A stretch of DNA of 64,000 nucleotides. Origin: an uncultured Thermoanaerobaculia bacterium (GTDB lineage Bacteria; Acidobacteriota; Thermoanaerobaculia; Thermoanaerobaculales; Sulfomarinibacteraceae). How positions within the stretch are numbered: the first letter of the stretch is position 1; every line of letters starts with the position of its first letter. The translations under genes were made by a program, and so were the position numbers. Positions 36,566-52,571 of the stretch are shown piece after piece. The notes beneath the pieces are model-generated. The model was not told the origin of the DNA. It did not search any database and was given only the letters and a program-made list of their open reading frames with translations. The DNA lies in NCBI GenBank assembly GCA_964641415.1, contig CAZXMW010000001.1, forward strand, positions 227,816 to 291,815. The letters run 5' to 3'.

Positions 36566-38278
36566 ATGTCCAACACCGAGCTCGCCCGCGACGCGTTACA
36601 GGAATGGCGAAGCGTCCGAGACCGTAACGCCTGGGAAGACGACCCCTTCTTCCGGAACTTGGTGGTGCGGTTGCGCGGCGACCAACTCGAGCACGGTCTC
36701 GAGGGCGACCTCAGGACCCTCGCCAACCGGCTCGACGCCGGCTTCGACGACCGGGTGGCGCGCTGCAACCGCGACGAGCATCTGCCGCGAGTTGAGCGTC
36801 ACGACGCCGACGGGCGGCCGGCCGAACGTGTCGTCTTCCACCCCGACCACCATGAGGTGGGCCGCGTGTTCTGGGCGAGCGGCGCCCTCGCCGCGCTCGG
36901 CGAGCCGGGGCACGAGGTCGACGCCGGAGCGCGGATCTACCTCCTCGACCAGCACGGCGAGGCCGGTCACGCGTGTCCCGTGGCCTGCACCGCCGGCGCG
37001 ATTCGACTGCTCCGCGGCGTCGGCACCGACGACCAGCGCCGGCGGTACCTGCCCGGTTTGCTCGACACCGACTACGACCGGCGGCTGCACGCGGCCCAGT
37101 TTGTCACCGAGGTTCAGGGTGGCTCCGACGTCGGACTCAATGAGGTCCGTGCGGTCCCCGACGACTCCGCTCCGGGCGGCTGGCGCCTGTACGGCGAGAA
37201 GTGGTTCTGCTCGGTCGCCGATGCCGGGCTCTTCGTGGTCAGCGCGCGGCCCGAGGGCGCACCCGATGGCACCCGCGGCCTCGCCCTGTTCCTGGTGCCG
37301 CGCGAGCTCGACGGCCGGCCGAACGGCTTCGCCCTGCGTCGGCTCAAGGTCAAGCTCGGCACCCGGTCCATGCCGACCGGGGAGATCGAGTTCGACGGCG
37401 CCGCCGCCGAGCCCATCGGCGTCGTCGGTGACGGCTTCCGCAACCTGGTTGGGATCGTTCTCGACACCTCGAGGTTCCACAACGCCGTGGCGGCGTGTGG
37501 CCTCATGCGGCGGGCTTTCACCGAAGCGCGCGCCTTCGCCCGGCGCCGAGTCGCGTTTCGCAACCCGATCATCGACTTCCCGTCGGTCCAGATCATCCTC
37601 GCCCGGATGAAGGTCCGGACGCGGGCTGCTCTGGCGACGACCTTCCGACTGCTCGACCAGACCGACCGCGTCGACACCGGGATCGGTGGCGACGATCTGC
37701 GGGCTGCGCGTCGGATCGGGGTCATGGTCAACAAGTACTGGACCGCGATCCAGTCGACCCGGGCGGCTCGCGACGGCATCGAGATCCTCGGCGGCAACGG
37801 CACCATCGAGGACTTCTCGATCATGCCGCGGCTCTACCGCGACGCCATCGTCATCGAAAGTTGGGAGGGCACCCACAACACCCTGTGCGCCCAGGTGCTG
37901 CGCGACTTCAAGGTGCGCCGTCTCGATCGACCGTGGCTCGAGCAGCTCGCCTCCGAGGTCGAGGCTCTGAAGATCGATGGACGCCAGGATCTGTCATCGA
38001 CCGCCGACGAGCTTTTGGACGATGCTCGGCAGCGCATCGAGAGACTGGTCGAGGCGGACGACGTCACGGCCGCGGCCTGGATCCGGGATCTGGTCGATCG
38101 CATGGCGGTGCTCACCGACTGGGTGGCCCTCGCGACCCAGGCGGTGTGGGAGAGCGAGCACGACCCCACGAGTGACACCGACGACGCCCTCGAGCTGTAT
38201 CGACGGCTCGAGATCGACCGGACGGACCACATGGGCGATCCAACAACATTCGACCTCGAGGCTCGGCTCGCGAGGTAG
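36566..38278 (+). CDS. AidB-like acyl-CoA dehydrogenase family protein
   Basis: GGGAGG RBS and ATG 36566. CPVACTAGA, TEVQGGSDVG, GEKWFCS, LKVKLGTRSMPTGEIEFDG, and ILGGNGTIEDFSIMPRLYRDA resemble AidB/ACAD blocks. Confidence 0.8.
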   Translation: MSNTELARDALQEWRSVRDRNAWEDDPFFRNLVVRLRGDQLEHGLEGDLRTLANRLDAGFDDRVARCNRDEHLPRVERHDADGRPAERVVFHPDHHEVGRVFWASGALAALGEPGHEVDAGARIYLLDQHGEAGHACPVACTAGAIRLLRGVGTDDQRRRYLPGLLDTDYDRRLHAAQFVTEVQGGSDVGLNEVRAVPDDSAPGGWRLYGEKWFCSVADAGLFVVSARPEGAPDGTRGLALFLVPRELDGRPNGFALRRLKVKLGTRSMPTGEIEFDGAAAEPIGVVGDGFRNLVGIVLDTSRFHNAVAACGLMRRAFTEARAFARRRVAFRNPIIDFPSVQIILARMKVRTRAALATTFRLLDQTDRVDTGIGGDDLRAARRIGVMVNKYWTAIQSTRAARDGIEILGGNGTIEDFSIMPRLYRDAIVIESWEGTHNTLCAQVLRDFKVRRLDRPWLEQLASEVEALKIDGRQDLSSTADELLDDARQRIERLVEADDVTAAAWIRDLVDRMAVLTDWVALATQAVWESEHDPTSDTDDALELYRRLEIDRTDHMGDPTTFDLEARLAR

Positions 38279-38318
38279 GCCGGTCCGCCCTGAAGCCTGC
38301 CGCGGATCTGCGGCTGTG

Positions 38319-39254
38319 CTACCAGCCGAGCCAGCGGCAGACGCGGGTCCACACCTTCTTGATGTCGTCCGCGGCTTCTCCGCCGACATCGACTACCGCA
38401 CGTGCCTGAAGTTGGGCCTGGGTGACCGCACGGTCATACCGGACGCGGCCGACCAGCGCGGCGCCGCGGTCGCGGGCCCGCACCTCGATGGCGTCGGCGC
38501 CTTCCGGGTTGAGGTCCCACCGGTTGACGCAGACCGCGGTGCGAGCGTCGAAGTGATCGGCAAGCTCGAGCACCCGCTCCATGTCGTGGACCCCGGACAC
38601 CGTCGGCTCGGTGACCACCAGGACCCCGGAGGAGCCGGTGATCGAAGCGATGACCGGGCAGCCGATACCGGGCGGTCCGTCGATCAGGATTCCTCGGCTG
38701 TCGGACGCGGCGGCGACGCTTCGCGCCTGCTGGCGCACGGTGGACACGAGCTTGCCGGAGTTCTCGGCAGCGATATCGAGGCGGGCGTGCACCATGGCGC
38801 CGCGGCGGGTCGAGGACACGTACCACTCGCCGCACCGCCGGTCGATGAAATCGATGGCGCCGATCGGGCACAGACCGACGCACAACCCGCAGCCTTCGCA
38901 GGCCAGCGGGTCGATCTCGGCGGTGAAGCCGTCGAAGGTAACGGCGTCGTATCGGCAGACCGCGGCGCACAGTGAGCATCCGTCGCAGGCGTCGGCTCGA
39001 ACCACCGCCTCGTGACCGCTGCGAAACTCGTGCCTCTCGAGAATCTCGGGCTCGAGGACGAGGTGAAGGTCGGCTGCGTCGACGTCGCAGTCGGCAACCA
39101 CGAGCCCTGCGTCGAGGACCGCGAAGGATGCCACGAGGCTGGTCTTTCCGGTGCCACCCTTGCCGCTGATGACCACCAGCTCCGGCAGGTCCGGCGGCTG
39201 CGTTCGCGGCCCGACGGTGGGAAGCGAAACCAAAGAGCTGTCAGGCAGAGACAC
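38319..39254 (-). CDS. MinD-superfamily P-loop ATPase with inserted 2x[4Fe-4S] ferredoxin domain (COG1149-type), copy B
   Basis: VVISGKGGTGKTS Walker A, CDGCSLCAAVCRYDA and CEGCGLCVGLCPIGA, DGPPGIGCPV. The start is uncertain and overlaps the upstream gene by 14 nt. Confidence 0.8.
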   Translation of the reverse strand: MSLPDSSLVSLPTVGPRTQPPDLPELVVISGKGGTGKTSLVASFAVLDAGLVVADCDVDAADLHLVLEPEILERHEFRSGHEAVVRADACDGCSLCAAVCRYDAVTFDGFTAEIDPLACEGCGLCVGLCPIGAIDFIDRRCGEWYVSSTRRGAMVHARLDIAAENSGKLVSTVRQQARSVAAASDSRGILIDGPPGIGCPVIASITGSSGVLVVTEPTVSGVHDMERVLELADHFDARTAVCVNRWDLNPEGADAIEVRARDRGAALVGRVRYDRAVTQAQLQARAVVDVGGEAADDIKKVWTRVCRWLGW

Positions 39255-40113
39255 GTTGGTCTCCTTGGATGGCGGCTTGTGCCTCGGCGAGACCCAGCCG
39301 GACGGCGAGATCGACGAAGATCGGCCGGGTTTCGGGGATTGCGTCGATCATCGGCCGGCCCCGGGCGTACGCCTCGGCGATTCTCCGGTCGTCCGGGATC
39401 TCGGCCAGAATGTCGAGCCCCTCGGCCGCGCAATAGTCGTGGACCCGGTCGTCGCCGGCGTCGGCGCGATTGATGACGACGCCGCACCGCAGGCCGAGGG
39501 TCCGCACGGTCTCGACGGCGAGCCCGAGGTCGTGGAGACCGAAGGGCGTCGGCTCGGTGACGAGCACGACCATGTCGGCGCCTCGGACGGCGGCGATCAT
39601 GGAACACGATGTGCCGGGCGGTGCGTCGATGAGTACGGTCTCTGCACCGCGGCCCCGGACCCGAACCTGCCGGATCAGGGGCGGAACCAACGCCTCGCCG
39701 ACGTTGAGTCGGCCCTGGACCAGCCGCACTCCGCGAACCTCGCTGTCCTCGATGAAACCAATGGTGCGGCCGACCTCGGAGATCGCCCGTTCCGGGCAGA
39801 GCAAGGAGCACGCGCCGCAGCCGTGGCAGAGCTCGGGGAACACCGCGGTTCTCGGTCCAAGCACCGCAATGGCGTTGAATTGACAGGCGCGACTGCAATC
39901 CCCGCACAGGGAACATCGGTCCTCGTCGATCCTCGGCACGGGTATGCCGACCTCGGTTCGCGCATGGGGTTTGGCATCGAGGAAGAGGTGCGCGTTCGGT
40001 GCTTCGACATCGCAGTCGAGCAACCGCACGCCGTTGCCGAGAGTCAGCGCGAGATTGACGGCAACCGTGGTTTTGCCGGTGCCTCCCTTGCCCGATGCGA
40101 TGGCGATGATCAT
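39241..40113 (-). CDS. MinD-superfamily P-loop ATPase with inserted 2x[4Fe-4S] ferredoxin domain (COG1149-type), copy A
   Basis: MIIAIASGKGGTGKTTVAVNLA, CSLCGDCSRACQFNA, CHGCGACSLLCPERA, DAPPGTSCSM. The ATG shares its A with the upstream TGA (TGATG). Confidence 0.85.
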   Translation of the reverse strand: MIIAIASGKGGTGKTTVAVNLALTLGNGVRLLDCDVEAPNAHLFLDAKPHARTEVGIPVPRIDEDRCSLCGDCSRACQFNAIAVLGPRTAVFPELCHGCGACSLLCPERAISEVGRTIGFIEDSEVRGVRLVQGRLNVGEALVPPLIRQVRVRGRGAETVLIDAPPGTSCSMIAAVRGADMVVLVTEPTPFGLHDLGLAVETVRTLGLRCGVVINRADAGDDRVHDYCAAEGLDILAEIPDDRRIAEAYARGRPMIDAIPETRPIFVDLAVRLGLAEAQAAIQGDQRVSA

Positions 40114-40472
40114 CACCAGTGTCCGCCGACATCGGGTCCGTCGGCACGGTTCAGAGCGCCCGACTTGAGCTGCTCGACAGCATCCGACACCGTGCCTGAC
40201 GCGCCGGTGTAGACCTCGATTCCGGCTGCGCGCAGACTGCGGAAGGCCTTCGGTCCGCAGTGGCCGGTGACCAGGCACTGAGCGCCGAGACGCGACACCG
40301 TTTCTGCGGCCTGGATGCCGGCGCCCTGCGCGGCGGCGACGCCGGCGGCGTTATCCTCGACCCGGGTCTCACCGGTCTCGGTGTCGACCATGACGAATAC
40401 CGCGGCGCGTCCGAACCTCGGATCGACCGCAGCGTCCACGCTGCTTCCCGTTGATGTCACGACGACCTTCAT
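40113..40472 (-). CDS. NifX/NifB-C-terminal-like (dinitrogenase FeMo-cofactor biosynthesis fold, COG1433) protein, copy 1
   Basis: 119 aa. MKVVVTS...DPRFGRAAVFVMVD...GAGIQAAETV...GAQCLVTGHCGPKAF..L..AGIEVY pattern. GGAGG RBS. Confidence 0.8.
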   Translation of the reverse strand: MKVVVTSTGSSVDAAVDPRFGRAAVFVMVDTETGETRVEDNAAGVAAAQGAGIQAAETVSRLGAQCLVTGHCGPKAFRSLRAAGIEVYTGASGTVSDAVEQLKSGALNRADGPDVGGHW

Positions 40473-40652
40473 TGAGTTCCTCCAGTCAACCGAATGAGCG
40501 AAGATGAGCGGATCTGCTGGATGAAATGCGCCTCGATCATGCCCCGTCGGTGGTTGCGAAAAACGGACGCATCGCTTTCAGGATATCGAATATTTTCGCG
40601 CCTGTCCGGGGTCCGGGAAATCGACGCAGATCACCAGCGAGAATCGCTCATC

Positions 40653-40970
40653 TCAAGAGTTTGTATCTTCGGACTCCAGAGCCTCGAGACGGGCTGTGAT
40701 GCGGTGCCGTTCGTCGTCGAGTTCGGTGGCCCGCTGCTCGAGCCACCGGCGCTCCGAGCCGACGTCGAAGCCGGATTCATCGGTCAACCACCCGGGTTGT
40801 CCGGTGGCCCAGAAACGATGACGCCAGCCGTTCCCGCCGCGACCGAAGCCGATCCCCGGTTGGCGGTATCCTCTGCCGCCACCCGACCACCCCGCTCTGC
40901 GGCACGGTCCGCATCCCCATCCGGTCATGGATCCCATTCCCATCGGTCCGGTTCCGTCTCCGCCTGGCAT
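40653..40970 (-). CDS. DUF5320 family protein
   Basis: N-terminus MPGGDGTGPMGMGSMTGWGCGPC and a C-terminal coiled-coil-like LEQRATELDDERHRITARLEALE. The start is 1 nt after the upstream stop. Confidence 0.75.
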   Translation of the reverse strand: MPGGDGTGPMGMGSMTGWGCGPCRRAGWSGGGRGYRQPGIGFGRGGNGWRHRFWATGQPGWLTDESGFDVGSERRWLEQRATELDDERHRITARLEALESEDTNS

Positions 40971-40971
40971 G

Positions 40972-41316
40972 TCAGCCCTCCTTTTTTTCGCGTCGTTTCA
41001 TGATTTCCTGATGATGCGGCGAGCCCTCGCGAATCAGTGCCGCGCCGCACTCGGGGCAGCGCTCGTCGAGACAGGGCACGCCGGGCCTGTGAGGATAGTT
41101 GCTGCCGCACTTGGGACAGAGACAGGCGCCCCCGGCGCCCATTCCACCTCCGCGTCCGCCGCCCTGGCCGGCGCCCCGACCCTGACCGGATCCGCCGCCC
41201 TGGCCGGCGCCCCGGCCCTGACCGGATCCGCGGCCCTGACCGGATCCGCTGCCCTGACCGGATCCGCGGCCCCCGCCGCCCGATCTCGGTGCGCTCATTC
41301 GTGTCGAGTCATTCAT
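40972..41316 (-). CDS. Gly-rich (GSGQGR)n protein with C-terminal 4-Cys zinc ribbon
   Basis: GGGAGGG RBS and ATG 41316. GGGGRGSGQGSGSGQGRGSGQGRGAGQGGGSGQGRGAGQGGGRGGG, then CLCPKCG...CPECG. The track N-terminus (to 41607) is discounted. Confidence 0.6.
   Translation of the reverse strand: MNDSTRMSAPRSGGGGRGSGQGSGSGQGRGSGQGRGAGQGGGSGQGRGAGQGGGRGGGMGAGGACLCPKCGSNYPHRPGVPCLDERCPECGAALIREGSPHHQEIMKRREKKEG
41161..41267 (-). repeat. Tandem coding repeats (2 x 36 nt, then 18-nt units) inside the Gly-rich gene
   Basis: GGCCCTGACCGGATCCGC at 41214 and 41232, with a near-copy at 41250. The 36-nt unit gccctggccggcgccccg(a/g)ccctgaccggatccgc occurs twice from 41161. Confidence 0.8.
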
Positions 41317-41351
41317 GTCGATTCCCTCCCTGGACGCGCAAACGCCCGGTG

Positions 41352-41762
41352 TCAGCGTTGATGATGTCCGCAACCGCCGCTGTCTCCGGCATCTTTGGAG
41401 TGGTGGTCGCAGTCGTGGAAACCGTGGTCGTGGCACAGCTCGCCGCTGGTGGTGAGGGTGCCGTCGAGGTAGCACCGCACCAGCGTCTCCGGGTCGTCGC
41501 CGACGGCGCCGGTGACCACGTCGATGCCGTACGCCGTGAGCATCTGTGCCGCTCGGGGGCCCATGCCGCCGGCGAGTACCGCCTCGACGCCCTGTTGGCG
41601 AAGCCACGCCGGGAAGATCCCCCGACCGTGCTCGGGCGGTGGCGTGAGCCGGGGCCCGGCGACGTCCTTGAGCTCGAAATCCACGGTGTACATGGCAAAG
41701 GTGTCCGCCCCGCCGAAGTGAGGGCTGAACTTACCGTCTCGTATCGGGACTGCGATGATCAT
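41352..41762 (-). CDS. NifX/NifB-C-terminal-like (COG1433) protein, copy 2, with Cys/His-rich C-terminal tail
   Basis: MIIAVPIRDGKFSPHFGGADTFAMY...GVEAVLAGGMGPRAAQML..YGIDVV. Tail CHDHGFHDCDHHSKDAGDSGGCGHHQR. The start shares its A with the DUF134 stop (TGATG). Confidence 0.75.
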   Translation of the reverse strand: MIIAVPIRDGKFSPHFGGADTFAMYTVDFELKDVAGPRLTPPPEHGRGIFPAWLRQQGVEAVLAGGMGPRAAQMLTAYGIDVVTGAVGDDPETLVRCYLDGTLTTSGELCHDHGFHDCDHHSKDAGDSGGCGHHQR

Positions 41763-42148
41763 CAGTTTCCTTTCCTTTGTCCCCGGTGTCGGCATCGACA
41801 TCTCCGGCCGCGGCGACCGTCGCCGTCGTGAACCGGGCAGGGCAGCGGACGCTGCTCGCCTGGCACGACCGGTCCGTCGCCGATCACGAGGAGCCGTTCT
41901 TCGATCAATGATCGGGCGACGATCGATCGCGCCCGGGCCAGAATTCGAGAAAAAGTCGGACGTGAGACGCCCATGCGCTCGGCGGCTGCCTCCTGGTAGA
42001 GCCCCTCGAGATCAGCCAACCGAAGCGCCTCGAGCTCGTCCACCCTGAGGGTCTCGACCTCGAGCTCCATCGATGGCCGTCCGACGGGCTTGAAGCCTCG
42101 TCCTGGGCCGACGCAGCCGACTCGTCTGAGCTTTTCCGGTCGTCCCAC
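41762..42148 (-). CDS. DUF134 (UPF0251) predicted HTH DNA-binding protein
   Basis: GGAGG-cgct-GTG start at 42148 gives (M)GRPEKLRRVGCVGPGRGFKP..., matching the canonical MPRPRKCRRV...FKP N-terminus. The helix-turn-helix region is VDELEALRLADLEGLYQEAAAERMGVSRPTFSRIL. Confidence 0.75.
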   Translation of the reverse strand: MGRPEKLRRVGCVGPGRGFKPVGRPSMELEVETLRVDELEALRLADLEGLYQEAAAERMGVSRPTFSRILARARSIVARSLIEERLLVIGDGPVVPGEQRPLPCPVHDGDGRRGRRCRCRHRGQRKGN

Positions 42149-44514: not shown

Positions 44515-44963
44515 CAGTCGAAGTGGAGCTCGATGACGTGCTGGAAGCGGCTCACCACCATGTAGACCGACACCCGCAATCGGAGCAGCGCGGAGCTCGG
44601 CGACCGGACGAAGGTCTCCAGGTGGGGGTGCTTGGCGAGGAACAGGGTTTCGAAAGCCGAACGGTCGCCCGGGTCGATTTCCTCGACGACGCCGACCGCG
44701 GTTGCCGCCGACGCCTCGGTGAAGTCGGCAGGCCGGTTGGTTCGGTTGTCGACGAGCATCGAGGCGCGGGCGTCGCCGGCCAGGTTGTCGTGCTTGCGGG
44801 TCTGGCGACCGGTGACGAAAAGCAAAGATCGAAGGTCGTCGGTGGCGGCGAAGCCGACCAGGCTGGTGTAGGGCTCGCCGTCGTGGTGGGTGCCGAGGAC
44901 CGCCAATAACTGGCTCGACAGCAGCTCTCGCAGGATCTCGAGGTGGCTCGGGTCGTGATTCAT
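44514..44963 (-). CDS. Pyridoxamine 5'-phosphate oxidase family (FMN-binding split barrel) protein
   Basis: 149 aa. LLAVLGTHHDGEPYTSLVGFA...LLFVTGRQTRKHDNL pattern. The stop abuts or overlaps the downstream kinase start. Confidence 0.7.
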   Translation of the reverse strand: MNHDPSHLEILRELLSSQLLAVLGTHHDGEPYTSLVGFAATDDLRSLLFVTGRQTRKHDNLAGDARASMLVDNRTNRPADFTEASAATAVGVVEEIDPGDRSAFETLFLAKHPHLETFVRSPSSALLRLRVSVYMVVSRFQHVIELHFD

Positions 44964-45021
44964 CGGAGGGTCCCGCCTTTCACCGCGAAGTATACGGCTT
45001 CGCGAGCGGGGGGGGCGCCGG

Positions 45022-46035
45022 TCAGCGCCCGTCGCTCAGAGGGGCCGGGTGGATCGCCGCGCGGCCGAGTGCCATCATCGCCATGTGGGGCACCGTCAGC
45101 ACCGACAGACCGATGAAGACGATCGACGCGAGCACGGCGTCGAGCTGCACCCCGGCAATGAACACCGCGGCTCCGGCGGCGACAGCGGCAACCACCGTCA
45201 GGAGGGTCAGCGGCAGCGCCTCGCGAACGAAGCGTCGGATTCCGTCGCCGAGCCGCCCGGGCGCCAGGTCGCCTGCGAGCTCGAGGGCGTGGCGCATGGA
45301 GTGCCAGCCGCAGAAGTAGGTCAGAAAGGCGATCAGCGGCGGGGCGACCACATGGAGGGTAGCGATCGCGGCGAGCTCGGCCCCTGCAGCCAGGTGCCCG
45401 CTGGACGTCAGGCGAGCCAGACGAAGCGCGGCCACGGGGAGCACGACCGCCGCGGCGCAGCCCGCCAGAGCGCCGACGACGCCGTGGTCGAGGGTGATCC
45501 GCGCCGGCATCAGCCAGCTGAAGATGACCGTGACCTCGGCGGCGTGCAGCCAGGTCGGCAGCACGATGGGCAGCGCGCCGACCGCGAAGCGCTCGACGGT
45601 GTTCCAAAGCGGTGTCGACCGTTCGATCCACAGCGGATCGTCCCACCCGAAGTGAAGCGCCGACAGCGCGAGAAAGGTGACCAGCGCAATCACCGGAACG
45701 GCGATCCAGAGCGCTCCCATGAAGCCCGCCAGCGAAAGGTAGCCGACGACGAACGGGAGCCACCAGCGGCTGCCGAACACCGGCCGGAAGATCTGGCGCG
45801 CCACCAGATGATCGAGGGCGCCGTGAGGCAGGCCGACCACCGCGACCGCCGCGGCGAGCAGGGCGAGCTGAGCGAAGGAACCGGGCGAACCTGCAGTCAC
45901 CGCATATGCGATCACGGCAGCGGTGATGCCGAGCATCAGACTCCGGTGCTCGCTGAGGGGCGCGACCAGCGATTGCGCCCGGTGGGCGTCCAAACCAGGC
46001 TGCCGCCTCGGAAGGATGGCGAGAGTGGTCGTCAT
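45022..46035 (-). CDS. blh: Brp/Blh-family beta-carotene 15,15'-dioxygenase (retinal synthase)
   Basis: Polytopic protein with conserved His blocks GLPHGALDH, FCGWHSMRHALE and LTVPHMAMM. ATG 46035 lies 49 nt downstream of the rhodopsin stop. Confidence 0.8.
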   Translation of the reverse strand: MTTTLAILPRRQPGLDAHRAQSLVAPLSEHRSLMLGITAAVIAYAVTAGSPGSFAQLALLAAAVAVVGLPHGALDHLVARQIFRPVFGSRWWLPFVVGYLSLAGFMGALWIAVPVIALVTFLALSALHFGWDDPLWIERSTPLWNTVERFAVGALPIVLPTWLHAAEVTVIFSWLMPARITLDHGVVGALAGCAAAVVLPVAALRLARLTSSGHLAAGAELAAIATLHVVAPPLIAFLTYFCGWHSMRHALELAGDLAPGRLGDGIRRFVREALPLTLLTVVAAVAAGAAVFIAGVQLDAVLASIVFIGLSVLTVPHMAMMALGRAAIHPAPLSDGR

Positions 46036-46084
46036 CACAGAAGAAAACGACCCGGGCCGGCACGCGGCCGGCCCGGGACACACG

Positions 46085-46861
46085 TCACGCAGAGGCGCCG
46101 GCGGCGGACAGCGTGAAACCCTCGGCATCCGACTTGGCCCGAGCCAGGCGGTAGATGAAGATGCCGTACAGAGCCTTGGCGGTCAGGTCCGCAATGCTGT
46201 AGCCGACCTGGACGCCGACCTCGGCGGCGGCGCCGGAAAGGCCCAGCATGGGCAGGATGAAGGCGATGGGATAGACCCACCACGACACGACGATGAGATT
46301 TCGAGCGCCGGCGAGCCGTGACCGGATCTCGCCGTTCTCGTCGGCGACGGACCTGGTCAGCTGCCCGAACAGGACGCTCAGGATGTAGAGGAACGGAATC
46401 ATGGACAGCGCCCAGAAGACCCACCGCACCCCGTTCTGATCGGAGATCTCGCCCGGATAGCCGAGGGCGAGCATCGCGATGGCGGCGAAGCTGAGCTTGG
46501 TAATCAGGTTCGACGACTGAGCGCGGCTGAGACCGAGCACGGCGACCAGCTCGATGAGCAGCAGCGGCACGGTGATGAGCCAGTCGGCATAGCGGTAGGC
46601 CTCGTTGAAGGGGACGCCGGACGGGACGTAGTTGCCGCCCTGAAGGACGAAGGCGGCGGCCCAGCTTTCGAACATGCGGAAGTAATGGTAGCCGGCGATG
46701 AACACGACGACTCCGGAAATGATGAGCGCGGGCCGGTATTGCGGCGCGACCTGCGAGCGCGCGGCGAAGAAGAAGATGCCGGAGCCGAACATGGTCGCCA
46801 GCGTCAACGACAGCATGTTGTAGACCAGCTGGAACTGACCCGGGGTGAGTGTGAACTCCAT
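46085..46861 (-). CDS. Microbial rhodopsin, proteorhodopsin/xanthorhodopsin-like, DTE motif (outward H+ pump type)
   Basis: GGAGG RBS and ATG 46861, 258 aa. Helix B AGYHYFRMFESW. Helix C RYADWLITVPLLLIE (D, T, E at the BR 85/89/96 equivalents, Leu at the PR-105 position). Helix G YSIADLTAKALYG (Asp + Schiff-base Lys). Confidence 0.9.
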   Translation of the reverse strand: MEFTLTPGQFQLVYNMLSLTLATMFGSGIFFFAARSQVAPQYRPALIISGVVVFIAGYHYFRMFESWAAAFVLQGGNYVPSGVPFNEAYRYADWLITVPLLLIELVAVLGLSRAQSSNLITKLSFAAIAMLALGYPGEISDQNGVRWVFWALSMIPFLYILSVLFGQLTRSVADENGEIRSRLAGARNLIVVSWWVYPIAFILPMLGLSGAAAEVGVQVGYSIADLTAKALYGIFIYRLARAKSDAEGFTLSAAGASA

Positions 46862-47006
46862 CGTGAACCTCCAAGATTGATTTCGTTGTGTGAAAAGCAA
46901 TCTTATTTCGCAGAATTCCAGAAAAAATCGACGTGATCTTGACAAAATTGAGAATTTTATCTCAAGCTTTGAGCGGTTCATCTGCCTCAGGACCGTGCTC
47001 CTCTGG
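46862..47006 (-). promoter_or_regulatory. Conspicuously AT-rich rhodopsin leader with two inverted repeats
   Basis: TTGAGA-atttta-TCTCAA (46948-46965) and AAGATTG-18 nt-CAATCTT (46873-46904), the latter abutting the GGAGG RBS. I could not pin down a convincing -35/-10 pair. Confidence 0.35.
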
Positions 47007-47390
47007 TCACGGTCGGTGGTCGGCCGGGCCCCGTCGCAGGCGAATCGGACCCCGAGCCGAGGACGGATCGACCGCCCGGGAGCCCTGGACGATCTCGAGC
47101 CGGCCCGCCGCCGCGAGCCGCCGCGCCGCCCGGCGGGACGCCTCCATGAGCTCGCGCCACCGGTCCGGTGCGACCGCCCTCGCCGCCTCCGAGGGGCAGA
47201 TGGAGGCGCCGTCGGCCCGCGCCTCCAGAAGGTCGAGGATGGCGTCCTCGAGGCGTCGGTCGAGCGGCCTCAGCCGTCTGTTGCGGCAGACGCTCGAGCA
47301 GTAGCGCACCTCGTCCCAGCGGCGCCGCCATCGACGGCGCCACTCGAAGCGGCGACCGCAGGACGCGCAGATCTTCGACTCTCGGCTCAT
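47007..47390 (-). CDS. DUF2256 (Zn-ribbon) + DUF3253 fusion protein
   Basis: MSRESKICASCGRRFEWRRRWRRRWDEVRYCSSVCRNRR (DUF2256 pattern), then ...ICPSEAARAV...WRELM...RRAARRLAAAGRLEI. ATG 47390 forms an ATGA overlap with the photolyase-fusion stop. Confidence 0.7.
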   Translation of the reverse strand: MSRESKICASCGRRFEWRRRWRRRWDEVRYCSSVCRNRRLRPLDRRLEDAILDLLEARADGASICPSEAARAVAPDRWRELMEASRRAARRLAAAGRLEIVQGSRAVDPSSARGPIRLRRGPADHRP

Positions 47391-49822
47391 TCGGAACCGT
47401 CGAACAGCGATGGCTGCTCGGGGTCCGGGTGCAGCGAGAGCAGCCGCCCGGCCGCCGCGCAACCCGACAGGAAGGCGCCTTCGACCCTGGGCCCACCGCA
47501 CCAGTCGCCGCAGGCGGCGATCGCGAGATCCCGGTCGAACAGACACGGCTCCGGCAGGGGTTCGAAGGGCTGGGCGAAGCGCCAGCGATGGCCGAACAGG
47601 TCATCGGGCGGGGGCAGACGGCGGTTGACCGCGTCGTGGAAGGCGCCGACGAGCCGACCTGCGGCGAGCTCGCTGTCGAGCTCGAGGTGCTCCTCGGACC
47701 ACTCGGGCGAGGCGTGCAGGACCCAGGTCTCGCCGGTCGGACGACCGGGCTTGCTGCCGTTGCGGGCGACCCACCTCAGCGGAGAGTCGTGGACGAAGGC
47801 GCCGTCGAAGTTCAGCCCGAGCGGCTCCGCGAAGTGCACCATCGCCGCCCAGCAGGGCGCCATCTCGACGGCCTCCGCTCGCCCGCTGAACTCGGGCGCG
47901 AAACCGCCGAGCAGTGCGGCGGTCTGGGGCGCCGGGGCAGACACCACGATCGCGTCGAAACCACCGAGCTCGCCGTCCGTGGTGTGCAGGGACCAGCGGC
48001 TGCCGTCGCGATCGAGACCGGCCACGCGAATGCCGTAGGCGACATCGAGGTCCGTCGCCAGGTGCCGGCAGACGGCGTTCATGCCGGGAACACCGACGAA
48101 GCGCTCTGTCGTGTCGTCCTTGATCTCGATCGCCCCATGGTCGACCACCGCGATGGTGCCGGACCAGGGAGCGACGAGGCCGTCGTCGCGCCACGACCGG
48201 ACGAAGCGCCCGAAGCGCCGATCGCGCACCGTGAAGTACTGTGCTCCGTGGTCGAAGCGCAGCTCGCCGGCGCGCCGGGTCGACATTCGTCCGCCCGGCC
48301 CCCGGGACTTGTCGAAGACGCGGACCCGGTGGCCGTGATCGGCGAGGGATCGAGCGCACGCCAACCCCGACATGCCGGCCCCGATGATTGCGACCTCGAG
48401 CGGCCGCTCGGTGGCCGGTGGCGTCACCCGGGCGGCGTAGCGGTCGAGGTCGAGGCGGCGAGCGTGCGAGGCTGTGGAGCGCGAACGCACCCTGCCGAGG
48501 ACGGGTTGTTCCGGATCGAAGGGCCGGTCGAAGAGTCCGAGGCACCAGAGTAGGCCGCCGTAGGAATTGGGGTCGGATCCGTCGAGGGCGAAGCGGTGGT
48601 TGAGGTCGATCAGGGTGTCGAGGGCGTGGTGGGAATCGCGGGTCCAGCCGACGAGGGCTTTGCCCCAGGTCATCCGGACGTTGTTGTGAAGCTCGCCGTG
48701 GCGCACCAGCGAGGTCTGACAGAGATCCCACAGCCGGTCGCCGGTGCGGCCGCGGGACAGGGTCTCCCATGACCGGGGATCGCGCTCGTCGCCGGCGTGC
48801 CGCGTCAGGGTCTCCCGCGCCCAGACCGGCAGAACCTCGAGCGACTCGACGAGATCGTGACGATGAAAGCACAGGTTGTGCGCGAGCTCGCGCCAGACAA
48901 TGAGCTCGTCGAGGAACTTCTCGGCGCCCTTGCCGCCGACCTCGGCCGCCTCGCGGGCGATTCGCAGCGGAGACACGTGGCCGTGGTGGAGGTAGGCCGA
49001 CAGACGGCTGACGCCGTCGGCCGCCGCGTCGTTCCGCCGGGCGGCGTACGATCGAAGCCCGCGTTCGCGAAACGCCGACCAGCGGGCGTAGCCGGCGACG
49101 GATCCGCCCGGGGTGTGGGCGACCGGCCCGACGGTGTGGTCGACGGCGCAGCCCGCGACGAGATCGGAAATTGCTGTGTCCTCCAGGTCGGTGTCTTCGA
49201 ATCCGAGCGTCGAACGGTCAAAGGGCGGCGGCGAGCTCTCGACCGACGGCCACGGCGACCAGAGCCGACTGTCGAGCTCGTCGCGGATCGCCGACCGGAA
49301 CGCGAAGGCCCGGTCGTGGGGGCGCCCGACCAGCCGCATGGGGACGACGCACGCCGTGTCCAGCGCCCATACCGGGGTGGTGATCCGCTCGGCGACACCA
49401 GCGGTCCAACGGGAAAATGGCGGTGCCGGAAAGTCCTCGGTGACCACCAGCGCCGCGTCGGCGGCCAGCCCTGCCAGGGGCGTCGGTCGGCGGGGATCGG
49501 CGCCGAGTGAGAAGACGTGAACCAGACCCTGCTCGGCGAGCTCCGCGCGGACGTCGCGAGCGCCTTCGAGAATGAAGGTGTGGTGGCGGTCGTTATCGAA
49601 ACGGTGACCTCCGCCGAGCCCCTGGTAGACGATGAGAGGCAGCTCGAGCGTTGCGGCGGCGATGCGAGCGGCGTCGAGGGCGGGGTTCTCGTGACCGCGG
49701 ACCGCGTGGTGCATCCAGTAGAGCACGTGGCGCCCGGAGGTCGCGAACGACCGGTCGGCGACGATGCGCACCCGTTCTCGGACGGCCTCGGGGAGCCGGT
49801 CGAGAAGATTTTTCGGGGTCAT
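47387..49822 (-). CDS. Class II CPD photolyase fused to a renalase-like (COG3380-type) NAD/FAD-dependent oxidoreductase
   Basis: N-terminal part of about 470 aa: VLYWMHHAVRGHENPAL, LSAYLHHGHVSP, ELIVWRELAHN, LWDLCQTSLVRHGELHNNVRMTWGK, DGSDPNSYGGLLWCLG. C-terminal part of about 330 aa: VAIIGAGMSGLACARSL...FDKSRGPGGRMSTRR...ACGDWCGGPRVEGAFLSG. One uninterrupted frame. ATG 49822 forms an ATGA overlap with the nei stop. Confidence 0.8.
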   Translation of the reverse strand: MTPKNLLDRLPEAVRERVRIVADRSFATSGRHVLYWMHHAVRGHENPALDAARIAAATLELPLIVYQGLGGGHRFDNDRHHTFILEGARDVRAELAEQGLVHVFSLGADPRRPTPLAGLAADAALVVTEDFPAPPFSRWTAGVAERITTPVWALDTACVVPMRLVGRPHDRAFAFRSAIRDELDSRLWSPWPSVESSPPPFDRSTLGFEDTDLEDTAISDLVAGCAVDHTVGPVAHTPGGSVAGYARWSAFRERGLRSYAARRNDAAADGVSRLSAYLHHGHVSPLRIAREAAEVGGKGAEKFLDELIVWRELAHNLCFHRHDLVESLEVLPVWARETLTRHAGDERDPRSWETLSRGRTGDRLWDLCQTSLVRHGELHNNVRMTWGKALVGWTRDSHHALDTLIDLNHRFALDGSDPNSYGGLLWCLGLFDRPFDPEQPVLGRVRSRSTASHARRLDLDRYAARVTPPATERPLEVAIIGAGMSGLACARSLADHGHRVRVFDKSRGPGGRMSTRRAGELRFDHGAQYFTVRDRRFGRFVRSWRDDGLVAPWSGTIAVVDHGAIEIKDDTTERFVGVPGMNAVCRHLATDLDVAYGIRVAGLDRDGSRWSLHTTDGELGGFDAIVVSAPAPQTAALLGGFAPEFSGRAEAVEMAPCWAAMVHFAEPLGLNFDGAFVHDSPLRWVARNGSKPGRPTGETWVLHASPEWSEEHLELDSELAAGRLVGAFHDAVNRRLPPPDDLFGHRWRFAQPFEPLPEPCLFDRDLAIAACGDWCGGPRVEGAFLSGCAAAGRLLSLHPDPEQPSLFDGSE

Positions 49823-50652
49823 CTCGACCTCGCGGCGGGCTGGCAGGCGGGGCACCAGAAGCACTTCCGTCCGCCCACCGACGCCTGCTCGACCTCGACG
49901 CCGCAGACCCGGCACGGCTCTTTGTCCCGCCCGTAGACCCAGAACCTCGCCGCCGCTCGGGTCAGGCCGGTCTTCCTGAGCTCGGTGTAGCGGGTGTCGG
50001 GAACCGTGATCCCGCGGGTCCGGTAGGCGCGGCGGGTCAGGGCGAGCATCCGGTCGGCGAGCCGATCGCGCTCGGAAGCGCTGCAGTCGGCCGCCCGCCG
50101 GCGTGGGTGGAGCCCCGCCTCGAACAAGACGTCGGCGCGGAGGTAGTTGCCGAGCCCGGCGACGAAGCCCTGGTCGAGGAGGAGCGCTCCGAGCTGGCGT
50201 CCCCGAAAGCGCGACTCGTCGAGGCGCCCGGCGATCTCGTTCGCGGTCGGCGTTTCGGACAGCAGGTCGGGCCCGAGACGGCTCAAAAACCGGTGCTCGC
50301 GCTCGGCATCGCGGTCGAGGACCTCGATCTCGGAGGCCGAGTAGAGCAGCGCCTGCCGGCCGCCCGACCGGACCGCGAAGCGGAGCTGCCGACGGGTCTC
50401 GGGTCGCCGCCCGTTGGCCATGACGTACCAGCGGCCGTAGAGCTGGTTGTGCGAGTACACGGTCAGACCGCCGTCGAAGCGGGTCAACATGGCCTTGCCT
50501 CGGGTGGTCACCTCGCGAATCACCCGCCCGGTGAGCTCGTCCTCGTACGGCTTGAGACGCTCGAAGGCGAAAAAGACCTCGTCGGCCACCTGGCCCTCGA
50601 TGGCGGCGGCGACGCGGTCGGCAGCGCGGCGGATTTCCGGACCTTCCGGCAT
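49819..50652 (-). CDS. nei: Endonuclease VIII (Fpg/Nei family DNA glycosylase)
   Basis: MPEGPEIRRAADRVAAAIEG..., YSHNQLYGRW, LLYSASEIEVL, LLLDQGFVAGLGNYLRADVLF and the C-terminal zinc finger CFWCPACQ. Co-linear with E. coli Nei as I recall it. Confidence 0.85.
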   Translation of the reverse strand: MPEGPEIRRAADRVAAAIEGQVADEVFFAFERLKPYEDELTGRVIREVTTRGKAMLTRFDGGLTVYSHNQLYGRWYVMANGRRPETRRQLRFAVRSGGRQALLYSASEIEVLDRDAEREHRFLSRLGPDLLSETPTANEIAGRLDESRFRGRQLGALLLDQGFVAGLGNYLRADVLFEAGLHPRRRAADCSASERDRLADRMLALTRRAYRTRGITVPDTRYTELRKTGLTRAAARFWVYGRDKEPCRVCGVEVEQASVGGRKCFWCPACQPAARSR

Positions 50653-50710
50653 GTCGATCTCCATGTCGAGAAATGGCGGCGCGTGGTTTCGTATTCCGCG
50701 GGCCGGCGCG

Positions 50711-51551
50711 TCATCCGGTGATGTCGAGCAGCCGTCGGACATCCGCGAGGGTGTCGATGTCGTTGACGGTCTTGTCCCGCCGCCATCGGGCCATGCGCGG
50801 AAAGCGCAGCGCCATCCCGGCCTTGTGTCGGGACGACGGCCGGATGCCCTCGAAGGCGAGCTCGAAGACCAGCGCGGGCGTCACCGAGCGAACCGGTCCG
50901 AAGCGCTCGACGATGTTGCGCCGGACGAAGCGGTCGACCTCGCGGATCTCGGAGTCGGTCAGCCCCGAGTAGGCCTTGGCGATGGGCACCAGGTCGTCGC
51001 CGTCGCGCACCGCGAATGTGTAGGGCGTAGACGAACAGAACGCTCGTTCGGTTTTCCTCGCGGCGGCTCCGCCACCAGTCCTCGATCTCGCCGAAGACCT
51101 GCTCCTGGTCCGGCCACCGGTAGATCGGCAGGCCGAAGGTGCTTTCGGTGATGAAGACGTCGCAGGGAACCGGCTCGAAGGGCTCGCAGGTCGCGTCTGG
51201 GACGGTCTTGTAGTCGCCGCTCACGACCCAGACCTCGCCGCGGTGTTCGAGGCGGATCTGGGCCGAGCCGAGCAGGTGCCCGGCCGGGTGGAAGCTGACG
51301 CGGACGCCGTTGATGCGGGTCGCCGCCCCGTAGTCGGCGGTTTCGATGACGGCGTCGCGGCCCAGTCGGGGTCGCAGCACGTGGGCGCCGGAAGAGGTGC
51401 ACAGGTAGGCCGCCGAGCCCGGGCGGGCGTGGTCGGCGTGGGCGTGACTGATCACCGCGCGGCCGACCGGCCGCCAGGGATCGATGTGGAAGCCGCCGGC
51501 CGCGCAGTAGAGCCCCTCGGCGGCGCTCTGGAGCATGGGTTTACGGCTCAT
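50711..51551 (-). pseudogene. Deletion remnant: N-terminal ~175 aa of a ligase-associated DNA-damage-response exonuclease (MBL fold) joined out of frame to the C-terminal ~100 aa of an ATP-dependent DNA ligase
   Basis: Exonuclease part: GLYCAAGGFHIDPW...ISHAHADHAR...VSFHPAGHLLGSAQIRLE...WVVSGDYK...FITESTFGLPIYRW...SVLFVYAL. Nonsense sequence follows. In another frame from about 51022: YTFAVRDGDDLVPIAKAYSGLTDSEIREVDRFV...FGPVRSV...VFELAFEGI..SSRHKAGMALRFPRM.RWR.DK. The junction is near 51020-51030. Confidence 0.65.
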
Positions 51552-51770
51552 GCGCGGGTCAACGGGCTCGCACCGAGGATGCTTCCGCCACAGCAGGTGG
51601 AGCCGCGTGCAACAATCGCGATTCGGCCTTGATCGCGCCGAGCTCCAGCTCGGCGTTGATGGCGACGATGCCTGTCAGAACGCTCGCCTGGAGATGGGCG
51701 CTCCAAGGTGTTTCGGTCCTCACCGCCCTCTTCGTCGATTCTTGCAAGCGGCACGGTGTATAACCGTGGG

Positions 51771-52571
51771 ATGCGTCGTCGCCATCTGGTCGAGCTGCAC
51801 GAGCAACCCTGGTTTCCCGCGGCGTGGCGCGACCTGGTCACCGACTTCCTGTCGTTTTTTTTTCGGGCGTTTCGGCCCTACCGGGTCATCGCGCCGGTGC
51901 TCGCCGAGGCCCTCGAGCGGTCGCGCACCGAGAACGTGATCGACCTGTGCTCCGGAGCGGGGGCCCCGGTACTGTCGCTGCTGCCGGCCCTCCGTGGGCT
52001 CGGTCGCTGCCCGCGCTCGGTGGTCCTGACCGATCTTTACCCGAACCGTGACGCCTTTCGCATCGCGGCGGCGAGTGACGCGGGTGTCGCGGTCGTCGAA
52101 ACCCCGGTGGACGCCGCCGACGTGCCGGCCGATCTGGTCGGCTTCCGCACCCTGTTCACGTCGTTCCACCACTTCTCCCCCCCGGCTGCGCGCGCGATCC
52201 TCGCCGACGCCCGGAGCAAGGGCGAGGGCATCGGCGTCTTCGAGTTCACCGAGCGCAACCTCCTGCTGTGGTTGATCCCGGTGCTGGCGATCCCGTTCTT
52301 CGTGGCTGCCTGCACGCCCTTCATGCGCCCGTTCAGGTGGCGCCGACTGCTGTGGACATATTTGGTGCCCGTGGTGCCGCTGGTCGCCGGGTGGGACGGT
52401 CTGGTGTCGAACCTCCGCAGCTACACTCGGGGGGAGCTGCTCGAGCTCGCCGGCGCGCAAGGTCGCGGCGGGTATGTCTGGCGCACCGGCCGCGTCCGCT
52501 CGCTCGGCCTGAGTGGGGTCACGTACCTCGTGGGCTGGCCGGCGAGTGCGGAGCTCAGGTCACCGCGGTGA
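51771..52571 (+). CDS. Hypothetical protein, possibly SAM-dependent methyltransferase fold with C-terminal TM helices
   Basis: VIDLCSGAGAPVL motif-I-like and LFTSFHHF. Then hydrophobic LLLWLIPVLAIPFFVAACTPF. No firm family call. Confidence 0.45.
   Translation: MRRRHLVELHEQPWFPAAWRDLVTDFLSFFFRAFRPYRVIAPVLAEALERSRTENVIDLCSGAGAPVLSLLPALRGLGRCPRSVVLTDLYPNRDAFRIAAASDAGVAVVETPVDAADVPADLVGFRTLFTSFHHFSPPAARAILADARSKGEGIGVFEFTERNLLLWLIPVLAIPFFVAACTPFMRPFRWRRLLWTYLVPVVPLVAGWDGLVSNLRSYTRGELLELAGAQGRGGYVWRTGRVRSLGLSGVTYLVGWPASAELRSPR

What the first reader, a model, noticed from the sequence alone, without database searches (positions are those of the whole stretch)
47387..49822. Single-ORF fusion of a class II CPD photolyase with a renalase-like FAD oxidoreductase
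Seen in sequence: one uninterrupted 811-codon frame. Residues about 1-470 carry class II photolyase blocks: YWMHHAVRGHENPAL, LSAYLHHGHVSP, ELIVWRELAHN, HNNVRMTWGK, DGSDPNSYGGLLWCLG. After a short linker (...DLDRYAARVTPPATERPLE) comes a complete Rossmann FAD oxidoreductase: VAIIGAGMSGLACARSL, GPGGRMSTRR, ACGDWCGGPRVEGAFLSG.

Established knowledge: COG3380-type oxidoreductases are, as I recall, often neighbours of photolyase genes, but the two are normally separate proteins.

Inference: the covalent fusion implies a functional partnership, for example flavin/antenna cofactor handling or a second repair chemistry. I am not aware of a characterised example.
Basis: partly seen in the sequence, partly recalled or inferred. 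Interest (0 to 1): 0.55.

Follow-up and report, generated by a model that had tools for sequence, protein, structure and literature searches.

The report
Class II photolyase fused to renalase
One gene really does encode a light-driven DNA-repair enzyme (class II photolyase) joined to a renalase-type enzyme that cleans up damaged NAD(P)H; the fusion is common in bacteria, has never been studied biochemically, and hints that renalase's unclear natural role is tied to light stress.

Summary
A single 811-codon ORF lies on the minus strand (47387-49822). Residues 1-466 are a complete class II CPD photolyase. After a 9-residue linker, residues 476-797 are a complete bacterial renalase (43% identical to the characterised Pseudomonas enzyme, model-to-structure RMSD about 1.5 A).

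It is not an assembly artefact and not rare. The same junction occurs in about 190 protein clusters (50% identity) and in at least 80 species-level genomes, mostly Planctomycetota, including complete genomes of cultured strains. Linker length is invariant and AlphaFold2 gives pTM 0.92.

I found no published characterisation. One preprint figure draws the domain pair without comment.

New here: a related Holophagae genome carries the same operon after three deletions, one of which excised exactly the 470 photolyase codons in frame and left a working standalone renalase. Rare lineages show the reverse loss.

Best reading: two autonomous flavoenzymes for light-inflicted damage (DNA dimers and NAD(P)H isomers) co-expressed as one chain. 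A direct redox link between the two flavins is not excluded.

Verdict: a real, uncharacterised variant built from known parts. Moderate interest.

The parts
47387..49822 (-). Whole fusion gene (811 codons plus TGA stop)
   Evidence: ORF. 100% identical protein P0001 in the public collection. Independent gene call.
48425..49822 (-). Class II CPD photolyase module (residues 1-466)
   Evidence: TIGR00591 positions 5-452 of 453, E 6.9e-88. M. mazei 2XRY/8OET E about 1e-52 over the full length. Foldseek target-normalised TM 0.82-0.89. W310, W365, M384, W386, W393, N408 and W426 are invariant in 39 fused homologues.
48398..48424 (-). Inter-domain linker (residues 467-475, TPPATERPL)
   Evidence: Variable sequence apart from P469, but the same length in 38 of 39 homologues. 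LNHR-to-Rossmann spacing is 70 aa in nearly all loci. pLDDT blocks 86-93.
47432..48397 (-). Bacterial renalase module (residues 476-797), FAD Rossmann fold
   Evidence: 4ZCC/3KKJ E 1.7e-78 covering chain residues 4-325 of 336. 43% identity, and 29 of 29 family-invariant residues shared with PpRen. Target-normalised TM 0.94-0.95, RMSD 1.4-1.6 A.
49819..50652 (-). nei (endonuclease VIII); its TGA stop overlaps the fusion's ATG (ATGA)
   Evidence: NF007763 E 7e-98. Overlap read directly. Nei recurs beside the fusion in 11 loci.
47007..47390 (-). DUF2256 + DUF3253 gene (127 aa); its ATG overlaps the fusion's TGA stop (ATGA)
   Evidence: Pfam hits. Overlap read. Same-strand neighbour in 10 loci, 8 of them within 300 bp. 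Also follows the decayed fusion P0393.
46085..46861 (-). DTE-motif microbial rhodopsin, immediately downstream (context, own transcription unit likely)
   Evidence: Bac_rhodopsin E 8e-42. Motif RYADWLITVPLLLIE read. AT-rich upstream region. Terminator-like hairpin at 46077-46051.
45022..46035 (-). Blh beta-carotene 15,15'-dioxygenase (retinal synthesis), context
   Evidence: PF15461 E 9e-47. TIGR03753 E 4e-52.

Best explanation
The gene encodes a two-flavin, bifunctional 'light-damage repair' protein. The N-terminal module is a catalytically intact class II CPD photolyase. It would use FADH- excited by blue/near-UV light to split UV-induced pyrimidine dimers, and it keeps the class II Trp triad for photoreduction. 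The C-terminal module is an intact renalase. It would oxidise the inhibitory 1,2- and 1,6-dihydro isomers of NAD(P)H back to NAD(P)+ with its own FAD. The two modules are autonomous enzymes. The fusion, plus translational coupling to nei and to a DUF2256/DUF3253 gene, secures equimolar co-expression in light-exposed cells, where DNA and nicotinamide cofactors are damaged together. SHOWN: identity, integrity and conservation of both modules; reality and spread of the fusion; fixed linker length; light/UV-repair gene context; independent loss of either module. INFERRED: both enzyme activities, the photochemical origin of the renalase substrate in vivo, and light regulation in this particular organism.
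For: Both catalytic cores are intact. All photolyase lesion-binding, FAD-N5 and Trp-triad positions are invariant in 39 diverse fused proteins (mapped through the M. mazei alignment). All 29 renalase-family invariant residues are identical to the characterised PpRen, and the folds match. The fusion is real and old: about 190 clusters at 50% identity cross the junction, 80 species genomes carry it, and 75 of 83 loci show a single frame. The context is light/UV repair: nei, DPRP, a further cryptochrome/photolyase, SDR, a TIGR03643-like gene and DUF2256/3253 recur; a B12-binding CarH/LitR-type regulator lies directly upstream in L003; rhodopsin and blh lie downstream in the window. The modules are autonomous. 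In L085 a 1410-bp in-frame deletion removed exactly the photolyase codons, along with rhodopsin, blh and most of nei and DUF2256, while the renalase ORF stayed intact and under purifying selection (dN/dS 0.26-0.36). Conversely, P0392 and P0440 are standalone photolyases of the same subclade, and P0393 keeps the photolyase but has lost the renalase Rossmann half. [quoted passage not shown]
Against: No activity was measured. Several features are more than co-expression needs: the strict linker length, pTM 0.92, and the fact that this photolyase subclade is almost never found unfused (about 115 of the 120 nearest relatives). Together they suggest a fixed physical interface. G792 is invariant in 116 fused proteins but variable in standalone renalases. 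Many hosts are nominal anaerobes (14 Desulfobacterota genomes), which is odd for an O2-dependent oxidase. No evidence found here shows that 2-/6-dihydroNAD(P) is actually produced by light in cells.
Confidence: 0.6

Rival explanations
1. Redox-coupled machine. The renalase module takes a hydride from NAD(P)H or its isomers and passes electrons to the photolyase FAD, keeping or restoring the catalytically required FADH- state without relying on light-driven photoreduction. Under anoxia the photolyase flavin would replace O2 as acceptor.
For: Invariant linker length. pTM 0.92 with a high-confidence linker implies one preferred domain arrangement. The photolyase subclade is almost exclusively fused. 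Fused-specific invariant G792/R793 at the end of the last renalase helix. Clade-invariant substitutions next to the flavin/triad relative to M. mazei: Y380->T385 and D404->H409. Many carriers are anaerobes in which O2 is a poor acceptor.
Against: The canonical Trp triad for photoreduction is fully conserved, so a substitute route is not required. Standalone photolyases of the same subclade exist (P0392, P0440), and one lineage keeps the photolyase after deleting the renalase FAD-binding half (P0393). The renalase survives alone under purifying selection. The flavin-to-flavin distance could not be measured because model coordinates are not exposed.
Confidence: 0.22
2. Antenna or structural role. 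The renalase module (or its oxidised FAD, absorbing around 450 nm) acts as a light-harvesting or stabilising appendage for the photolyase and no longer works as an oxidase.
For: Tight predicted association. From my own knowledge, not tested here: some photolyases use a second flavin as antenna (Thermus FMN, Sulfolobus FAD).
Against: All 29 renalase-family invariant residues, including substrate-side ones shared with PpRen, remain conserved in fused proteins; a mere antenna would not need them. The domain readily reverts to an intact standalone gene. Known antenna flavins sit inside the photolyase N-terminal domain, not in a separate domain.
Confidence: 0.05
3. Artefact: two adjacent genes merged by a sequencing or assembly error, or a chance long ORF in GC-rich DNA.
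For: 70% GC DNA produces many long spurious ORFs.
Against: An identical protein occurs in an independent assembly. 75 of 83 loci from unrelated projects, including closed genomes, have the same single frame and spacing. Both halves hit curated families end-to-end.
Confidence: 0.01

Closest known systems
Methanosarcina mazei class II CPD photolyase (MmCPDII; PDB 2XRY, 4CDN, 8OET) and rice class II photolyase (3UMV)
   Same: Full-length homology (E about 1e-52 and 3e-45). Same fold (target-normalised TM 0.82-0.89). Same lesion-binding Trp/Met, Asn at FAD N5 and class II Trp triad.
   Different: Only 27-30% identity. Scores below the NCBIfam trusted cutoff for TIGR00591 (296 vs 550 bits). Clade-invariant changes T385 (Mm Y380) and H409 (Mm D404). 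Carries a 340-residue renalase module at its C-terminus.
Bacterial renalase from Pseudomonas savastanoi pv. phaseolicola / P. syringae (PDB 4ZCC, 4ZCD, 5KRQ, 3KKJ); 2-/6-dihydro-NAD(P) oxidase (Hoag et al. 2015, cited in PMC7660482)
   Same: 43% identity over 321 residues, whole-chain coverage, 29 of 29 family-invariant residues. Target-normalised TM 0.94-0.95, RMSD about 1.5 A.
   Different: The Pseudomonas enzyme is a standalone 336-aa protein. Here the module is N-terminally tethered to a photolyase by a fixed 9-residue linker, with fused-specific invariant G792.
PhrSph98-type bacterial class II-like photolyases, reported as bifunctional CPD/(6-4) (Sphingomonas sp. UV9; bioRxiv 10.1101/2022.06.29.498140)
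   Same: Same broad bacterial PHR2 group. That preprint's tree figure marks some homologues as carrying PHR2 + COG3380 domains, which is the only prior depiction of this architecture that I found.
   Different: The residues that preprint uses to define PhrSph98-type enzymes are not met here, by a constant numbering offset of 4: Y389->T385, W381->E377, F376->L372. The lesion-pocket A430 is Trp (W426), as in ordinary CPD class II enzymes. PhrSph98 itself was not aligned here.
Nudix hydrolase-photolyase operon of Prochlorococcus MED4 (as cited)
   Same: Conceptual analogue: a DNA photorepair enzyme co-expressed with a small-molecule damage-control enzyme.
   Different: Two separate genes, a different partner enzyme, and a resemblance of logic only, not homology.

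Membership tests
Class II CPD photolyase (TIGR00591 / PHR2) | End-to-end match to the class II-specific profile | tested here: inconclusive
   Profile positions 5-452 of 453 matched, E 6.9e-88, but 295.9 bits is below the curated cutoff of 550. This is a divergent subclade rather than a core member.
Class II CPD photolyase (TIGR00591 / PHR2) | Photolyase fold (alpha/beta N-domain plus helical FAD domain) closest to solved class II structures | tested here: met
   Target-normalised TM 0.82-0.89 to MmCPDII and rice class II, which outrank class I entries. In phmmer, class II hits are 1e-45 to 1e-52 versus class I 1e-7 to 1e-9.
Class II CPD photolyase (TIGR00591 / PHR2) | Class II Trp triad (Mm W381-W360-W388), Asn at FAD N5 (Mm N403), lesion-pocket W305/W421/M379 | tested here: met
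   W386, W365, W393, N408, W310, W426 and M384 are present and invariant in 39 of 39 fused homologues. The M. mazei numbering comes from my own knowledge and is consistent with the +20 tag offset.
Class II CPD photolyase (TIGR00591 / PHR2) | Light-dependent CPD splitting with bound FADH- | not testable with these tools
   Needs purified protein and a CPD repair assay.
Bacterial renalase (2-/6-dihydro-NAD(P) oxidase; COG3380) | Full-length homology and fold identity with characterised PpRen | tested here: met
   E 1.7e-78 over chain residues 4-325 of 336. 43% identity. Target-normalised TM 0.94-0.95, RMSD 1.4-1.6 A.
Bacterial renalase (2-/6-dihydro-NAD(P) oxidase; COG3380) | GxGxxG FAD dinucleotide-binding motif and conserved family core residues | tested here: met
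   G481/G483/G486 and 26 further near-invariant positions (including R512, D524-T531, H703, W747, G772-W774, R779, E781) are identical in PpRen: 29 of 29.
Bacterial renalase (2-/6-dihydro-NAD(P) oxidase; COG3380) | Oxidation of 1,2-/1,6-dihydroNAD(P) with discrimination against 1,4-NAD(P)H | not testable with these tools
   Needs enzyme kinetics.
PhrSph98-type bifunctional CPD/(6-4) photolyase | Aromatic electron-transfer path Y389-W369-W390-F376-W381 as defined in the preprint | tested here: not met
   By a constant offset of 4 anchored on eight conserved residues: T385, L372 and E377 replace Y389, F376 and W381; only W365 and W386 are kept. Mapping is by offset, not by direct alignment to PhrSph98.

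The most novel reading that the evidence does not exclude
The fusion is a functional unit in which the renalase flavin is wired to the photolyase flavin, making an NAD(P)H- or dihydroNAD-driven, light-independent recharging system for a DNA photolyase. More broadly, the physiological substrate of bacterial renalases is generated by light, so that renalase is at root a photodamage-repair enzyme. Either version would give the debated renalase family a concrete biological rationale and would add a new way of activating a photolyase.
Probability: 0.22. Interest if true: 0.75.

Novelty: new variant of a known kind. Interest (0 to 1): 0.45.

Why it matters
From my own knowledge, renalase's physiological role is still argued over. 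The 'metabolite repair of NAD(P)H isomers' idea (summarised in PMC7660482) has no established in-vivo source for the isomers. A conserved covalent link to a photolyase, seen in about 190 protein clusters, embedded in light/UV-stress gene neighbourhoods and sometimes under a CarH/LitR-type light switch, points to illumination as that source. This is directly testable in cultured carriers such as Stieleria marina K23_9. For photolyase research it offers a natural two-flavin class II enzyme with a predicted rigid partner domain, and a bacterial class II subclade for which no structure or biochemistry turned up in these searches. The natural in-frame excision of the photolyase module, together with loss of rhodopsin and retinal synthesis, is a neat example of modular loss of light-dependent functions.

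Tried and rejected
- Frameshift/assembly artefact: rejected.
- PhrSph98-type bifunctional CPD/(6-4) enzyme: rejected on that preprint's own residue criteria.
- Regulatory RNA, tRNA or meaningful repeats around the gene: none. Rfam gave 0 hits, ARAGORN gave 0, and the repeats are chance GC-rich matches.
- Sigma-70 promoter scan of 44900-51800: 0 sites, uninformative for this phylum.
- Fused-versus-standalone conservation contrast, intended to map an interface: largely confounded because the standalone sample is less diverse (mean entropy 1.22 vs 1.73). Only G792/R793 stand out against that bias.
- Measuring the FAD-FAD distance: not possible, no model coordinates are exposed.
- Monophyly of fused forms: the rough NJ tree of the renalase domain shows about 10 state changes. 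It is distance-based, unbootstrapped and uses biased sampling, so I use it only as an indication of repeated loss.
- Light induction of Pseudomonas renalase: the accessible LitR paper lists a 'FAD-dependent oxidoreductase' in the light-induced cluster but does not let me identify it as renalase. The key P. putida paper was not in the library.
- My first estimate of about 55% identity to PpRen was wrong; the computed value is 43%.
- The second homology search unexpectedly listed no fused proteins, not even the query's own P0001. I therefore did not use it to rank fused against standalone similarity.
Full report
**1. Observation**

The frame is real but lies on the minus strand. The ORF listing gives 47387..49915 (-), 842 aa from a GTG. 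The 811-codon form starts at the ATG at 49822. That ATG is the supported start:
- Homologues align from residues 1-10 of the 811-aa form.
- An independent gene call on a Logan contig uses it.
- It sits in an ATGA overlap with the stop codon of the upstream nei gene.

At the other end, the fusion's TGA overlaps the ATG of a 127-aa DUF2256+DUF3253 gene. The three genes nei, the fusion and DUF2256/3253 are therefore translationally coupled.

**2. What the two halves are**

N-half:
- Residues 15-465 match the class II photolyase profile TIGR00591 from position 5 to 452 of 453 (E 6.9e-88). The score of 296 bits is below NCBI's trusted cutoff of 550, so this is a divergent subclade.
- Against solved structures, the half aligns over its full length with the Methanosarcina mazei class II enzyme (E about 1e-52) and the rice enzyme (3e-45). 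Class I enzymes reach only 1e-7 to 1e-9.
- Using that alignment, the lesion-pocket residues (Mm W305/W421/M379), the Asn at FAD N5 (Mm N403) and the class II Trp triad (Mm W381/W360/W388) correspond to W310/W426/M384, N408 and W386/W365/W393.
- All of these are invariant in 39 diverse fused homologues.

C-half:
- Residues 476-797 match the characterised Pseudomonas renalase (PDB 4ZCC, 3KKJ) at E 1.7e-78 across chain residues 4-325 of 336. Human renalase matches at 1.7e-10.
- Computed identity is 43% over 321 residues.
- All 29 positions that are near-invariant across 118 fused and 114 standalone homologues are identical in the Pseudomonas enzyme.

Structure:
- An AlphaFold2 model built on the 39-sequence alignment has mean pLDDT 91.4 and pTM 0.92.
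- Foldseek places the C-half on renalase at target-normalised TM 0.94-0.95 (RMSD 1.4-1.6 A) and the N-half on class II photolyases at 0.82-0.89.
- No PDB chain covers both halves; the best query-normalised TM is 0.51.

**3. Is the fusion real, and how common is it?**

- The 120 best database hits to the whole protein are about 800 aa, 51-77% identical, and cover 95-100% of the query. They come from Acidobacteriota, Planctomycetota, Bacteroidota, Gemmatimonadota, Desulfobacterales and others.
The best 80 all match residues about 1-800 in one piece. By record title they are 48 Planctomycetota, 14 Desulfobacterota/'delta', 9 Gamma- or other Proteobacteria, 4 Acidobacteriota, 2 Myxococcota, 1 Rhodothermaceae and 2 with dubious labels.
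- They include closed genomes of cultured strains: Stieleria marina K23_9, Planctomycetales bacterium 10988 and Planctomycetaceae bacterium SH139.
- In 75 of 83 loci a single stop-free frame holds both domains. The distance from the LNHR motif to the Rossmann GxGxxG is 70 residues in nearly every case (67-71 in a few).
- A 191-residue query spanning the junction (residues 385-575) found 190 representatives of 50%-identity clusters at E <= 1e-30. All 150 listed cross the junction, 147 of them in a single aligned stretch.
- The linker (467-475) is variable in sequence apart from P469, but has the same length in 38 of 39.

The other half of that test, 'characterised', is not met.

**4. Literature**

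- Full-text searches for photolyase+renalase, class II photolyase+fusion+FAD oxidoreductase, COG3380, and photolyase+oxidoreductase domain+fused found no description of this protein.
- The single COG3380 hit is a 2022 preprint on PhrSph98-type photolyases. Its Figure 1 legend says PHRB, PHR2 and COG3380 domains are drawn on the tree nodes, but the text never discusses the fusion.
- By that preprint's own residue criteria the fused proteins are not PhrSph98-type. With a constant numbering offset of 4, Y389/F376/W381 become T385/L372/E377, and the pocket residue A430 is W426 as in ordinary CPD enzymes.
- Renalases are reported to oxidise 1,2- and 1,6-NAD(P)H. [quoted passage not shown]

**5. Gene context**

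- In the window the order on the minus strand is: remnant exonuclease/ligase, nei, fusion, DUF2256/3253, DTE-type rhodopsin, blh, PNPOx-like gene, PPDK-like gene.
- An unbiased clustering of ORFs within 6 kb of the fusion in 83 loci gave these recurrent neighbours:
  - DPRP/FeS-BCP-type photolyase: 14 loci
  - SDR: 12 loci
  - Nei: 11 loci
  - DUF2256+DUF3253: 10 loci, always the same strand, 8 within 300 bp
  - a TIGR03643-like small protein: 9 loci
  - another cryptochrome/photolyase: 5 loci
- In L003 a B12-binding MerR (CarH/LitR-type) regulator lies immediately upstream, with folE and an SDR downstream and two more photolyase-family genes nearby.
- This is the typical light/UV-stress neighbourhood described for Pseudomonas LitR regulons.

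**6. A natural dissection experiment**

- Standalone renalases up to 74% identical to the C-half occur in the same phylum.
- Two of them (L084, L085) are followed by the same PNPOx and PPDK genes as in the window.
- blastn of L085 (a Holophagae MAG) against the window shows four collinear blocks separated by three deletions:
  - nei interior, window 50431-49914
  - window 49814-48405, which is 1410 bp or exactly 470 codons in frame, so its protein P0122 begins MTP|LEVAVIGAG, the window's MTP joined to LEVAIIGAG
  - window 47329-44998, the rest of DUF2256/3253 plus rhodopsin and blh
- The surviving nei fragments (73% identical N-terminus) and the first 20 codons of DUF2256 show that the direction of change was loss.
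- The excised renalase remains an intact ORF, with dN/dS 0.26-0.36 in all pairwise comparisons, including standalone versus standalone.
- Conversely, the 120 nearest relatives of the photolyase half are almost all fused.
- Rare exceptions exist. P0392 and P0440 are complete standalone photolyases. P0393 keeps the photolyase and the overlapping DUF2256/3253 gene but retains only renalase residues 644-797, having lost the FAD-binding half.
- A rough NJ tree of the renalase domain interleaves fused and standalone forms, with about 10 state changes.

**7. Mechanism**

The simplest account of all this is two autonomous flavoenzymes dealing with two consequences of illumination, joined for co-expression. 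The photolyase repairs pyrimidine dimers in DNA. The renalase repairs mis-reduced nicotinamide cofactors. I give this 0.6.

Some features go beyond what co-expression requires:
- the invariant linker length
- pTM 0.92
- near-obligate fusion on the photolyase side
- fused-specific invariant G792
- clade-invariant T385 and H409 next to the triad and flavin
- the many anaerobic hosts, for an enzyme that normally uses O2

These keep alive a redox-coupling model in which the renalase flavin feeds the photolyase flavin. I give that 0.22. It is weakened by the intact Trp triad and by natural lineages that keep either module alone. An antenna-only role (0.05) and an artefact (0.01) are unlikely.

**8. 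Novelty and verdict**

Both modules belong to well-known families, and the architecture is abundant and auto-annotated. The window protein is one more member of an existing but uncharacterised fusion family. Relative to characterised systems it is a new variant of known kinds. Interest is moderate at 0.45. It is not surprising enough to overturn anything. It does offer a concrete, testable handle on the unresolved physiological role of renalase, a natural two-flavin class II photolyase, and an unusually clean example of in-frame domain excision accompanying loss of light-dependent genes.

Noticed in passing
window 50711-51551 (-): Deletion remnant of the 'ligase-associated DNA damage response' operon. 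The first 172 of 326 positions of the exonuclease (TIGR04122, E 7e-81) run out of frame and abut the last 93 residues of its ATP-dependent DNA ligase (TIGR04120 positions 434-526 of 526, E 2e-42). These are pseudogenes directly upstream of nei.
   Followed up: partly
window 45022-46861 (-): A DTE-motif (proteorhodopsin/xanthorhodopsin-like) rhodopsin and a Blh retinal-forming dioxygenase lie immediately downstream of the photolyase operon. An AT-rich stretch precedes the rhodopsin (GC 0.57) and a strong terminator-like hairpin (46077-46051) follows it. This small 'light island' is absent from the closest relatives L084 and L085.
   Followed up: partly
L085 5672-7083 (Holophagae MAG, protein P0122): The same operon after three deletions, including an exact in-frame excision of the 470 photolyase codons. 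It leaves a 110-aa nei remnant (N-terminal 74 aa joined to the C-terminal zinc finger) and a 20-codon DUF2256 stub. L086 also has a 57-aa upstream ORF containing a Nei zinc-finger remnant.
   Followed up: yes
L003 7065-11967: In a distant carrier the fusion is directly preceded by a B12-binding MerR (CarH/LitR-type) light-sensor regulator and followed by GTP cyclohydrolase I and an SDR (pterin synthesis, possibly for an antenna chromophore). A classical photolyase, a DPRP gene and an ECF-type sigma factor lie just upstream.
   Followed up: no
window 47007-47390 (-) and 10 related loci: The DUF2256 (zinc ribbon) + DUF3253 two-domain gene is the most tightly linked partner of the fusion: same strand, usually overlapping or within 300 bp, and retained even where the renalase half has decayed (P0393). 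Its function is unknown and it has no NCBIfam model.
   Followed up: partly
L008, L010, L011, L015, L016, L021, L025, L027, L029, L073 and window 38000-42000 region (per L001 8927-12678): Many carriers are nominal anaerobes (Desulfobacterales/Desulfosarcina). The window itself carries an anaerobe-style DUF134 / Nitro_FeMo-Co / CbiA-Fer4 gene set a few kb away. This is odd company for an O2-dependent oxidase and a rhodopsin.
   Followed up: no
fusion residues 431-450 (window about 48473-48532): The only low-confidence stretch of the AF2 model apart from the C-terminal tail (pLDDT about 53). It is a loop near the end of the photolyase module (FDRPFDPEQPVLGRVRSRST), even though several of its residues (D432, R433, P434, G443, R446, R448) are invariant in the family.
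   Followed up: no
L087 33-11344: A standalone renalase sits at the end of an amine-oxidase / DUF1365 / two CFA-synthase (UfaM-like) / CIA30 / DUF2389 cluster, the classic photo-oxidative-stress set, with a DPRP photolyase 2.6 kb downstream.
   Followed up: no
tool behaviour: The homology search with the C-terminal half returned only standalone proteins and omitted even the 100%-identical fused P0001. Its candidate pre-filter seems to penalise longer targets, so fused and standalone similarity cannot be ranked from that list.
   Followed up: no
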